From a virus (lineage: Duplodnaviria > Heunggongvirae > Uroviricota > Caudoviricetes): a stretch of DNA of 7,006 bases. A model generated the notes under the pieces. It saw nothing but the letters and a program-made list of their open reading frames with translations, was not told where the DNA came from and did no database searches. The stretch covers positions 1 to 7,006 of IMG/VR virus record IMGVR_UViG_2703719365_000001; one strand, written 5' to 3'. A program made the position numbers and the translations under genes. Shown one piece after another: positions 1 to 779 of this stretch; positions within the stretch are counted from its first letter, which is position 1; each line of letters starts with the position of its first letter.

Positions 1-779
1 AGTCTCCAGGATTTCCGGGGCGGTTCACCCTGAACCCGGCCAGCAAGCTGGCGTATCTGGTCCCACGAAAAAAGGCTGTATGCCTGGATATCAGTTATAT
101 GGGGCTTCTGCATCTGGCACAGGTCACAGGAGCCATTCAGTGGGGGCAATGCAAACTTGTTTACGAGAAGGACATTTACGAGTCCAACGGTATTGACTGC
201 GCCCCCACGCACAAATACAACCCCTTCGTAGACAGGGGCGCACGCATTGGCGGTTATTGTGTCGTAAAAACATTCGAAGGCGACTATCTGACCGAAGAGA
301 TGAGCAACAGGGAAATCGAGGTCATCAGGGCGTGCAGCAAAGCCGGAAATAACGGAGGAAGTAGCCCGTGGGATAGTTTCCCCGATGAAATGGCCAGAAA
401 AGCCATTGTTAAGCGCGCCAGCAAATACTGGCCCCGTCGCGATCGCCTGGATACAGCTATCGACTACCTGAACACTCAGGGCGGTGAAGGTATCATCCTG
501 AATGCTGATCACATCCCTGAGCGTGACGTCACTCCCGCATCAGATGAGATTATCAATGAGATCACTCAGGCAATCACCGAAATTAACAAGACATGGGATG
601 ACCTGCTTCCCTTATGTTCCAAAACATTCCGTCGCACGATTGCATCACATGAATATCTCAGTCAGGAAGAAGCTGTCAAAACGCTTGATTTTGTCAAAAA
701 GAAAGCTGCCAGAAACAAGGCCACGGCGGAAGCGAAAATTCACGCCACCACGGAAAATAACAGCGAGGCCGTGTCATGA
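1..779 (+). CDS. recT: Single-strand annealing recombinase, RecT/Redbeta family, 5'-partial. The reading frame is open from the window edge (first full codon at 3), so the track start at 99 is an internal Met. The core looks RecT-like and the C-terminal tail looks lambda Bet-like.
   Basis: No stop codon in frame between 3 and 98. Core motifs resemble E. coli RecT as I remember it (window 'SKAGNNG...PW...KYWP' vs RecT 'SKAGNNGPW...KYLP'). The last ~75 aa resemble the lambda Bet C-terminus ('[14 protein letters not shown]...EAVK'). The TGA stop overlaps the exo ATG (ATGA at 776-779). Confidence 0.85.

What the first reader, a model, noticed from the sequence alone, without database searches (positions are those of the whole stretch)
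1..779. Mosaic annealase: RecT-like core with a lambda Bet-like C-terminal tail, paired with lambda-type Exo
By eye the core matches RecT motifs, while the C-terminal ~75 aa match the Bet tail. In lambda that tail is the region that contacts Exo. The adjacent gene is a Redalpha-type exonuclease rather than RecE. This looks like domain-level mosaicism that keeps the annealase tail matched to its exonuclease partner.
Basis: partly seen in the sequence, partly recalled or inferred. Interest (0 to 1): 0.45.

Follow-up and report, generated by a model that had tools for sequence, protein, structure and literature searches.

The report
RecT-core annealase with Bet tail
A Shiga-toxin prophage carries a strand-annealing gene that joins a RecT-type DNA-binding core to the lambda Bet tail that docks onto lambda exonuclease; this is a common, functional combination in enterobacterial phages, but in this window an insertion sequence has broken the gene.

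Summary
Frame 3 of window 3-779 encodes 258 aa. Its core is RecT-type: Pfam RecT E=5e-23, and 33% identity to Rac RecT over the aligned core (E=7e-20). There is no significant match to the lambda Bet N-terminal domain. Its last ~75 aa are a genuine Redbeta C-terminal domain (E=5e-19 to PDB 8TFU/6M9K). The next gene is 88% identical to lambda Exo.

In 27 non-redundant loci from Enterobacterales, tail identity tracks Exo identity (Spearman 0.89). Core identity does not track Exo once the tail is accounted for (partial -0.02). The closest core relatives that lack an Exo carry an unrelated tail and a Gp157 gene instead. Residues at the lambda Exo-Bet contact differ by class on both sides.

Two corrections are needed. 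First, the gene is not cut by the window edge. Nt 1-27 are the end of IS1203/IS629, which separates codons 1-66, so this copy is probably dead. Second, the architecture is not a one-off. It is the standard Rec module of TL-2011c/O104:H4-type Stx2a phages and of phi80. A 2025 survey suggested partner-domain shuffling for this annealase type but did not test it.

Interest is moderate.

The parts
1..27 (+). Outer end (terminal inverted repeat, read as reverse complement) of an IS3-family element, IS1203/IS629. The rest of the element lies upstream of the window.
   Evidence: Nt 1-26 do not align with the intact phage gene. Nt 1-30 occur up to 50 times per genome in 3627 of 5426 E. coli genomes. 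At one such site they abut an annotated IS1203 transposase. The junction alignment shows 27/27 identity to that IS end.
27..476 (+). RecT-type annealase core, 3' part only. It corresponds to residues 67-216 of the intact 316-aa protein. Codons 1-66 (the N-terminal helical lobe) are separated from it by the IS.
   Evidence: Pfam RecT E=5e-23. BLASTP to Rac RecT gives 33% identity, E=7e-20, with nothing significant to the lambda Bet NTD. Foldseek top hit is LiRecT 7UB2. The intact reference is L001:2803-3753.
477..530 (+). Flexible interdomain linker, where conservation among core relatives stops. It ends in the ERD(V/I)TP motif.
   Evidence: The AF2 model has pLDDT<50 at residues 217-231. In alignment A3, 15 relatives are 60-90% identical up to NTxGGEG and then fall into tail classes.
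531..728 (+). Redbeta-type C-terminal domain, a three-helix bundle. In lambda it docks on helix E of Exo and also binds the SSB C-terminal tip.
   Evidence: phmmer E=4.9e-19 to 8TFU and 7.8e-15 to 6M9K. Foldseek gives TM 0.88-0.94 and rmsd 0.6-0.8 A. Contact residues L223 and F249 are kept; I227 is T and L250 is V.
729..779 (+). C-terminal extension of 16 aa that is absent from lambda Bet, plus the stop codon. The stop overlaps the exo start (ATGA).
   Evidence: Alignments.
776..1465 (+). Lambda-type 5'-3' exonuclease (Redalpha/YqaJ family), 229 aa, apparently intact.
   Evidence: 88% identity to lambda Exo, E=4e-160. Pfam YqaJ 99.7 bits. The segment holding what I recall to be the lambda Exo catalytic residues (D119, E129, K131; own knowledge, not checked here) is identical. 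Helix E keeps L91 and F94, with T90A and T95I.
1465..2052 (+). Phage single-strand DNA-binding protein of the DUF669 / 'SSB-2' type, 195 aa. Its start overlaps the exo stop (TAATG). It is probably the third member of the Rec module.
   Evidence: phrog_743 'single strand DNA binding protein' E=8e-69. Sources name the homologues DUF669. 88 of 95 full-length homologues end in Phe, typically after acidic residues. Zheng et al. 2025 list SSB-2 in the TL-2011c module.

Best explanation
The window is the early-left recombination module of a TL-2011c/O104:H4-type Stx2a lambdoid prophage.

Its annealase has two domains. The first is a RecT-subfamily DNA-annealing core. The second, after a flexible linker, is the same three-helix C-terminal domain that lambda Bet uses to dock onto helix E of lambda Exo and, alternately, onto the C-terminal tip of SSB.

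The tail and the downstream exo gene are inherited together as one cassette. Annealing cores are exchanged upstream of it, with junctions falling in the linker. By analogy with lambda, the tail would place the RecT-type core at the exit of the Exo trimer, so that it loads onto the 3' overhang as it is made. This step is inferred, not shown.

In this genome an IS1203/IS629 insertion separates codons 1-66 from the rest of the gene. The annealase is therefore most likely non-functional here, while exo and the SSB gene remain intact.
For: Shown by computation:
- Domain assignments.
- Exo is 88% identical to lambda Exo.
- The window is 99% identical to Stx2a phages and to Ss-VASD, and 143 of 5426 E. 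coli genomes cover at least 80% of window 1-1500.
- Among the 80 loci fetched for relatives of the core, all 27 non-redundant loci with a Bet-like tail have a lambda-Exo homologue immediately downstream.
- For pairwise identity matrices, tail versus Exo gives Spearman 0.89 (Mantel p<=5e-4). Core versus Exo gives 0.38. The partial correlation of core with Exo given tail is -0.02, and of tail with Exo given core is 0.90.
- Cores 68-73% identical to this one carry either a Bet-like tail plus Exo, or an unrelated tail plus Sipho_Gp157 and no Exo within 3 kb.
- Contact positions fall into classes on both partners: L/I/F/L with T/L/F/T; F/K/M/L with M/T/F/Y; A/L/S/M with L/L/F/E; and here L/T/F/V with A/L/F/I (contact list from PMC6393309).
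- A reciprocal case exists. Pseudomonas phage Haboob has a Bet-type core 64% identical to lambda, but an unrelated tail and an Exo only 33% identical.
- The IS end is shown.

From the literature:
- The lambda CTD-Exo contacts, and L223 and F249 being essential for complex formation (PMC6393309).
- The phi80 recombinase of this architecture is active in vivo (PMC3945230; architecture).
Against: - No binding or activity was tested.
- Tail and exo are adjacent on the DNA, so random breakpoints would also make the tail's history resemble Exo's. Class-wise contact differences are confounded by shared ancestry.
- At the DNA level the tail is about 62% identical to lambda and exo about 85%, rising to about 95% at its 3' end (my estimates by eye from the alignment). 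Tail and exo are therefore not one recent block relative to lambda.
- Two of four hydrophobic pocket residues differ from lambda (I227T, L250V).
- The coupling is not clearly universal. The nuclease of Pseudomonas phage Haboob is 70-72% identical to the Exo of Pseudomonas loci with RecT-type cores, yet the tails are only marginally similar (z<=3.8).
- Whether the IS-separated 5' part lies just upstream cannot be seen from the window.
Confidence: 0.75

Rival explanations
1. Linkage only. The tail travels with exo simply because the two are adjacent on the DNA. Its main job is binding the host SSB C-terminal tip, not choosing the exonuclease.
For: The lambda CTD binds the SSB C-terminal tip through the same pocket (PMC6393309; PDB 8TFU is the top hit). 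Adjacency alone predicts a higher tail-Exo than core-Exo correlation. In Pseudomonas, similar Exos come with barely similar tails.
Against: As far as I know the SSB tip (DDDIPF) is invariant across Enterobacterales (own knowledge, not tested here). On that basis an SSB-only role would not explain tails diverging to 25-33% identity in step with Exo. It would also not explain their replacement by an unrelated tail where Exo is absent. The two residues essential for Exo binding in lambda (L223, F249) and their Exo partners (L91, F94) are kept here.
Confidence: 0.15
2. There is no mosaic. The protein is a uniformly diverged member of one family, and the tail similarity to Bet reflects common descent of the whole protein.
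For: Lambda Bet itself belongs to Pfam RecT (E=2.7e-33), so cores and tails could in principle share one ancestor. The BLASTP alignment to Bet runs a little into the last core helix.
Against: Identity to Bet is about 52-55% in the tail but undetectable in the core. Bet and Rac RecT give no significant BLASTP match. Core and tail identities are discordant across 27 loci. The phi80 tail is 74% identical to lambda, although its core is 55% identical to this one and does not align with the Bet core.
Confidence: 0.04
3. The finding is moot for this genome, because the gene is a dead remnant. The IS insertion removed the start codon and the N-terminal lobe, so no mosaic annealase is made and Exo works alone or not at all.
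For: The IS1203/IS629 end lies at nt 1-27. The missing residues 1-66 are among the most conserved and form the predicted N-terminal helical lobe. Another Stx2a phage (Stx2a_JNE090861) has an IS629-type insertion at residue ~230 of the same gene, with the tail and exo lost.
Against: This concerns expression in one strain, not the architecture. The intact gene is present at 98-100% protein identity in many Stx phages and E. coli genomes. The reading frame downstream of the IS is still open.
Confidence: 0.7

Closest known systems
Lambda Red system: Redbeta (Bet) + Redalpha (Exo), with the Exo-CTD complex in PDB 6M9K
   Same: Same gene order with overlapping ATGA. Exo is 88% identical. The tail is a homologous three-helix CTD (about 52-55% identity, predicted rmsd 0.6-0.8 A). 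The essential contact residues L223/F249 and L91/F94 are kept. A flexible linker precedes the CTD.
   Different: The DNA-annealing domain belongs to the RecT subfamily, with no significant BLASTP match to Bet residues 1-177. There is a 16-aa C-terminal extension. Contact residues I227T and L250V are paired with Exo T90A and T95I. A phage SSB (DUF669) follows exo, which lambda lacks.
Phage phi80 rec ('RecT-phi80') + exo; SAP type 4 modules of Zheng, Casjens et al. 2025, including TL-2011c
   Same: Same architecture: RecT-type core (55% identical), Bet-type tail, lambda-type Exo (85% to lambda), small Gam-like gene upstream. TL-2011c is listed there with SAP-4 and SSB-2.
   Different: The phi80 tail is closer to lambda (74%) than this one, and phi80 has no SSB gene next to exo. 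The copy in this window is IS-disrupted.
Rac prophage RecT/RecE
   Same: The core is homologous (33% identity, E=7e-20) and both hit Pfam RecT.
   Different: Rac RecT has no Bet-like tail and pairs with RecE, which lies upstream of it. Here there is no RecE, and the partner is a lambda-type Exo downstream.
RecT + Sipho_Gp157 modules (e.g. phage Kapi1; Enterobacter and Salmonella prophages)
   Same: These are the closest relatives of the core, 68-73% identical over residues 1-~215.
   Different: They carry an unrelated ~79-aa tail, have no exonuclease within 3 kb, and have a Gp157 gene downstream.

Membership tests
RecT/Redbeta annealase superfamily (Pfam PF03837) | RecT domain match above the curated cut-off | tested here: met
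   82 bits against a cut-off of 24, E=5.4e-23, window aa 10-146.
RecT/Redbeta annealase superfamily (Pfam PF03837) | RecT-type fold of the core | tested here: met
   AF2 model of the intact homologue (pLDDT 74). Foldseek top hit is LiRecT 7UB2, E=2.2e-7, TM(target) 0.58. This is a prediction, not a solved structure.
RecT/Redbeta annealase superfamily (Pfam PF03837) | Complete, uninterrupted coding sequence in this window | tested here: not met
   Codons 1-66 are replaced at nt 1-27 by the end of IS1203/IS629.
RecT/Redbeta annealase superfamily (Pfam PF03837) | Single-strand annealing activity | not testable with these tools
   The phi80 protein of the same architecture is needed for phage recombination in vivo (PMC3945230).
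Lambda Bet (Redbeta) orthologue, judged on the N-terminal domain | Significant similarity to Bet residues 1-177 | tested here: not met
   BLASTP aligns only residues 178-300 of the intact protein with Bet 140-261. The Redbeta NTD structure is not among the top 50 Foldseek hits.
Redbeta C-terminal domain (Exo/SSB-binding three-helix bundle) | Significant sequence similarity to Bet 183-261 | tested here: met
   E=4.9e-19 (8TFU) and 7.8e-15 (6M9K).
Redbeta C-terminal domain (Exo/SSB-binding three-helix bundle) | Three-helix bundle after a disordered linker | tested here: met
   Predicted helices at 239-251, 256-267 and 279-314; linker pLDDT<50. TM 0.88-0.94 and rmsd 0.6-0.8 A to 6M9K/8TFU.
Redbeta C-terminal domain (Exo/SSB-binding three-helix bundle) | Hydrophobic pocket L223, I227, F249, L250, of which L223 and F249 are essential for the complex | tested here: met
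   The window has L, T, F, V. Both essential residues are kept, and the two others are changed.
Redbeta C-terminal domain (Exo/SSB-binding three-helix bundle) | Physical binding to the cognate Exo | not testable with these tools
   Only inferred, from co-variation with Exo.
Lambda exonuclease (Redalpha, YqaJ PF09588) | YqaJ domain, the segment around the residues I recall as catalytic, and helix E residues L91 and F94 | tested here: met
   99.7 bits. 88% identity, with the segment around D119/E129/K131 identical (the catalytic role of these residues is from my own knowledge). L91 and F94 are kept.
RecET system | RecE-type exonuclease as partner | tested here: not met
   No RecE in the window. 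The partner is lambda-type Exo.
IS3-family element IS1203/IS629 | Terminal repeat identical to annotated copies, present in many copies per genome | tested here: met
   27/27 identity to an IS1203 end. Up to 50 places per genome in 3627 genomes. The body of the element lies outside the window.

The most novel reading that the evidence does not exclude
The Redbeta-type tail and lambda-type Exo form a portable, co-evolving two-part cassette with several distinct contact classes, which may be mutually orthogonal pairs. The usual and most diverse partner of this cassette is the RecT-type core.

On this reading, lambda Bet is the derived chimera. In the phage collection a Bet-type core is seen with this tail only in lambda's close relatives (191 records at >=90% identity). 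The next-nearest Bet cores (62-65% identical, Pseudomonas; 58%, Acinetobacter) match Bet only as far as residue ~180-211. In the one of these compared directly (Haboob) the tail is unrelated.

By contrast, the RecT-core version spans tails 24-74% and Exos 50-90% identical to lambda across many Enterobacterales genera.
Probability: 0.3. Interest if true: 0.55.

Novelty: new variant of a known kind. Interest (0 to 1): 0.38.

Why it matters
Specialists have left two points open. [quoted passage not shown] A 2023 review said it is unknown whether RecT-type annealases use a similar CTD (PMC11611040). [quoted passage not shown]

The comparison here indicates that nature has repeatedly joined RecT-type cores to the Bet tail, always next to a lambda-type Exo, with junctions at the linker.

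If binding tests confirm this, it gives a simple design rule for recombineering: swap the tail to pair any annealase core with a chosen exonuclease. It also gives a set of natural contact classes to test for orthogonality.

For this strain, the practical point is that its Stx prophage has probably lost its own annealase to an IS insertion.

Tried and rejected
- The word-indexed protein search with the tail alone returned only 8 short fragments.
- The exhaustive search of 1.84 billion representatives with the tail gave only 21 hits, mostly fragments. It was of little use for listing architectures.
- A viral-contig scan with a Bet-core alignment returned 80 loci essentially identical to lambda (99-100%), so it could not test the diversity of Bet-type cores.
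- I looked for a recent tail swap on an identical core. Stx2a_JNE090861 matches residues 1-230 at 99%, but this turned out to be another IS insertion with the tail and exo lost, not a swap.
- I tried to replicate the tail-Exo coupling in Pseudomonas. Exos are 70-72% identical between a Bet-core phage and RecT-core prophages, but tail similarity is marginal (z<=3.8, and a control tail reached z=3.0). I rate this inconclusive.
- The supplement of Zheng et al. 2025 and the phi80 genome paper (PMC3510586) are not held. I therefore cannot exclude that the domain structure is noted there.
- Chance similarity of the tail is rejected on E-values.
- 'Uniform single-family similarity' is rejected.

Full report
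WHAT IS IN THE WINDOW

The window is 99% identical over most of its length to Stx2a-converting lambdoid phages and to Shigella phage Ss-VASD, genus Oslovirus. Of 5426 complete E. coli genomes, 143 cover at least 80% of window 1-1500, among them the O104:H4 outbreak strains. The gene order in the window is:
- annealase (3-779)
- exonuclease (776-1465)
- a DUF669-type SSB (1465-2052)
- a protein of unknown function (2127-2474)
- DUF2303 (2538-3359)
- a PAPS-reductase-like protein (3987-4865)
- Ead/Ea22 and others.

In the intact reference phage a small Gam-like gene precedes the annealase.

CHECK OF THE OBSERVATION

Frame 3 is open from nt 3 to the stop at 777-779.

Pfam places window aa 10-146 in the RecT family (E=5.4e-23). 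A sequence search of all PDB chains finds only the Redbeta C-terminal domain. It matches window aa 167-241 at E=4.9e-19 (8TFU) and 7.8e-15 (6M9K).

I used the intact 316-aa homologue from Ss-VASD for pairwise comparisons:
- Against lambda Bet, BLASTP aligns only residues 178-300.
- Against Rac RecT, it aligns only residues 56-202, at 33% identity and E=7e-20.
- Bet and Rac RecT themselves give no significant match.

The neighbouring gene is 88% identical to lambda Exo.

An AlphaFold2 model of the intact protein (mean pLDDT 74) shows three parts:
- a core, residues 1-217
- a low-confidence linker, residues 217-231
- three C-terminal helices.

Foldseek against the PDB ranks Listeria RecT (7UB2) first for the core. 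Next come six Redbeta CTD chains, with TM 0.88-0.94 and rmsd 0.6-0.8 A. The Redbeta N-terminal domain structure does not appear in the top 50.

One refinement: lambda Bet is itself in Pfam RecT. 'RecT-like versus Bet-like core' is thus a distinction between subfamilies of one superfamily.

Nt 1-26 do not align with the intact phage gene. The first 30 nt occur in 3627 of 5426 E. coli genomes, at up to 50 places each. At one such place they abut an annotated IS1203 transposase. A junction alignment shows nt 1-27 identical to that IS end, with phage sequence resuming at about nt 27.

The phage-derived part starts at residue 67 of 316. The missing 66 residues are among the most conserved in the family. 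They form the predicted N-terminal helical lobe. In LiRecT the N-terminal lobe clamps on the annealed duplex (review PMC11611040). I infer that this copy does not make a working annealase.

No complete E. coli genome in the collection has this junction. All 15 listed hits begin at nt 27, and because the ranking is by coverage times identity, a hit covering nt 1-1500 would have come first.

A different Stx2a phage, Stx2a_JNE090861, has an IS629-type insertion at residue ~230 of the same gene, and the tail and exo are absent after it. IS hits in this gene therefore recur.

IS THE TAIL A MODULE, AND DOES IT FOLLOW THE EXONUCLEASE?

A search with the intact protein found a large family in Enterobacterales. 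Their cores are 57-82% identical to this one. Their tails fall into classes relative to the lambda CTD (alignment):
- about 50-60% identical: E. coli Stx phages, Serratia
- 70-72%: Klebsiella michiganensis
- 30-36%: Yersinia, Morganella, Proteus, Providencia
- no detectable similarity: Enterobacter, Klebsiella, Salmonella proteins of 297-300 aa.

In that alignment conservation runs up to the motif NTxGGEG and then breaks. This coincides with the predicted linker.

I then fetched 80 genomic loci and extracted core, tail and neighbouring genes.
- Every locus whose tail matches the lambda CTD has a close lambda-Exo homologue immediately downstream.
- Sixteen loci (L009-L017, L019-L022, L028, L045) have cores 68-73% identical to this one but an unrelated tail. 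They have no lambda-Exo homologue within 3 kb. In the six of them whose ORFs I inspected, the downstream gene is a ~137-170-aa protein; the three scanned against Pfam are Siphovirus Gp157. Phage Kapi1 is another example of this arrangement.

Tail identity to lambda follows Exo identity to lambda, whatever the core identity:

| Exo identity to lambda | Tail identity to lambda CTD |
|---|---|
| 81-90% | 48-72% |
| 69-78% | 51-55% |
| 52-60% | 24-33% |
| 46% or less | not detectable |

Over 27 non-redundant loci I compared pairwise identity matrices:
- tail versus Exo: Spearman 0.89 (Mantel p<=5e-4)
- core versus Exo: 0.38
- core versus Exo, controlling for tail: -0.02
- tail versus Exo, controlling for core: 0.90.

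A reciprocal case exists. Pseudomonas phage Haboob has a Bet-type core 64% identical to lambda through residue ~197. Its tail is unrelated, and its nuclease is only 33% identical to lambda Exo.

THE CONTACT SURFACE

In the lambda complex, Exo helix E (T90, L91, F94, T95) inserts into a CTD pocket (L223, I227, F249, L250). Single changes of L91, F94, L223 or F249 abolish the complex. Peripheral polar contacts are dispensable (PMC6393309).

In the window the four essential residues are all kept. The other pocket and ridge residues differ on both sides: CTD I227T and L250V, and Exo T90A and T95I. Across the loci the contact positions form classes that change together:

| Class | CTD 223/227/249/250 | Exo 90/91/94/95 |
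|---|---|---|
| lambda-like | L/I/F/L | T/L/F/T |
| Morganella, Proteus, Xenorhabdus | F/K/M/L | M/T/F/Y |
| Yersinia, Serratia | A/L/S/M | L/L/F/E |
| this window (Stx phage) | L/T/F/V | A/L/F/I |

This is what co-evolving partners would look like. Because tail and exo are inherited together, however, it is not independent proof.

MECHANISM (INFERRED)

[quoted passage not shown] The same pocket can then hand over to the SSB C-terminal tip.

The domain assignments and the co-inheritance are shown. The binding and loading steps are inferred.

The module here also encodes its own SSB of the DUF669 type. In 88 of 95 full-length homologues this protein ends in Phe, typically after acidic residues (for example ..DDDIPF..DDAPF..GFTPF; here ..YGSDSF). 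This resembles the tip of E. coli SSB that binds the Redbeta CTD, so the tail may have a third, phage-encoded partner. That is speculation.

EVIDENCE THAT LIMITS THE CLAIM

- At the DNA level the tail is about 62% identical to lambda and exo about 85%, rising to about 95% near its 3' end (my estimates by eye from the alignment). Tail and exo are therefore not one recent block relative to lambda.
- Physical adjacency predicts part of the correlation.
- In Pseudomonas, the Haboob nuclease is 70-72% identical to the Exo of RecT-core prophages, yet tail similarity is marginal (z<=3.8, with an unrelated control reaching z=3.0). The rule is not shown to be universal.

COMPARISON WITH WHAT IS KNOWN

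The architecture is not unique to this window. Phage phi80's rec gene has a core 55% identical to this one, a tail 74% identical to lambda's, and an Exo 85% identical to lambda's. De Paepe et al. 2014 called it RecT-phi80. They gave only an overall 32% identity to Redbeta and showed that it drives recombination in vivo (PMC3945230).

Zheng, Casjens et al. 2025 classed such proteins as SAP type 4. They noted that this type occurs with Exo (phi80), with RecE, with no nuclease, or with SSB-2 (TL-2011c). [quoted passage not shown]

Caldwell et al. [quoted passage not shown] A 2023 review states that it is unknown whether RecT-type annealases use a similar CTD.

In the phage collection, 118 records hold this architecture at 80% coverage or more. 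For the full lambda Bet query the figure is 248, but that count also includes some RecT-core proteins that align weakly (for example phage PA2 and Klebsiella phage RothD). 191 records are at least 90% identical to Bet.

VERDICT

Two corrections apply: the gene is IS-disrupted here, and the chimera is a widespread, old family rather than a local event.

The idea is anticipated in the literature, but its explicit demonstration appears not to be published in what I could search. I rate it a new variant of a known kind, with moderate interest.

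Noticed in passing
window 1-27: The window opens inside the terminal repeat of IS1203/IS629. The annealase gene is split at codon 66/67 rather than merely cut by the window edge.
   Followed up: yes
window 1465-2052: The DUF669-type phage SSB ('SSB-2') starts on the exo stop (TAATG). In 88 of 95 full-length homologues it ends in Phe, typically after acidic residues (e.g. ..DDDIPF, ..GFTPF; here ..YGSDSF). This is like the E. coli SSB tip that binds the Redbeta tail, so it may be a third partner of the tail.
   Followed up: partly
L085 (Stx2a_JNE090861) 3450-5500: A second, independent IS629-type insertion in the same annealase gene, at residue ~230. The tail, exo, SSB and following genes are absent after it, and window-like sequence resumes at about window nt 4690. 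IS hits in this Rec module seem recurrent in Stx2a phages.
   Followed up: partly
window 507-527; also lambda Bet 191-196 and L087 (phage Haboob) residues 171-176: The short motif ERD(I/V)TP at the start of the tail is kept in RecT-core proteins, in lambda Bet, and in a Pseudomonas Bet-core protein whose remaining tail is unrelated. It could be a preferred junction for domain exchange or a functional linker element.
   Followed up: no
L009-L022, L028, L045, L088: The closest relatives of the core carry a different ~79-aa tail and are followed by a Siphovirus Gp157 gene, with no exonuclease within 3 kb. That tail may be the adaptor for Gp157. What Gp157 does in recombination is, as far as I know, not established.
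   Followed up: partly
window 3987-4865: A 292-aa PAPS-reductase-like protein (Pfam PF01507 on the N-terminal 70 aa only; phrog_424) sits in the early-left operon. Its role in the phage is unclear.
   Followed up: no
window 6250-6592 and beyond: Matches to most Stx2a phages stop at nt 6250, and those to Ss-VASD and PPwrbA_EH2201 at 6592. These look like mosaic boundaries in the Ead/Ea22-DUF551 region.
   Followed up: no
window 776-1465 compared with lambda exo (alignment A2): By eye, identity to lambda exo rises from about 80-85% in the 5' two-thirds to about 95% in the last ~160 nt. Amino-acid differences cluster around helix E (residues 86-101), the Bet-contact region.
   Followed up: partly
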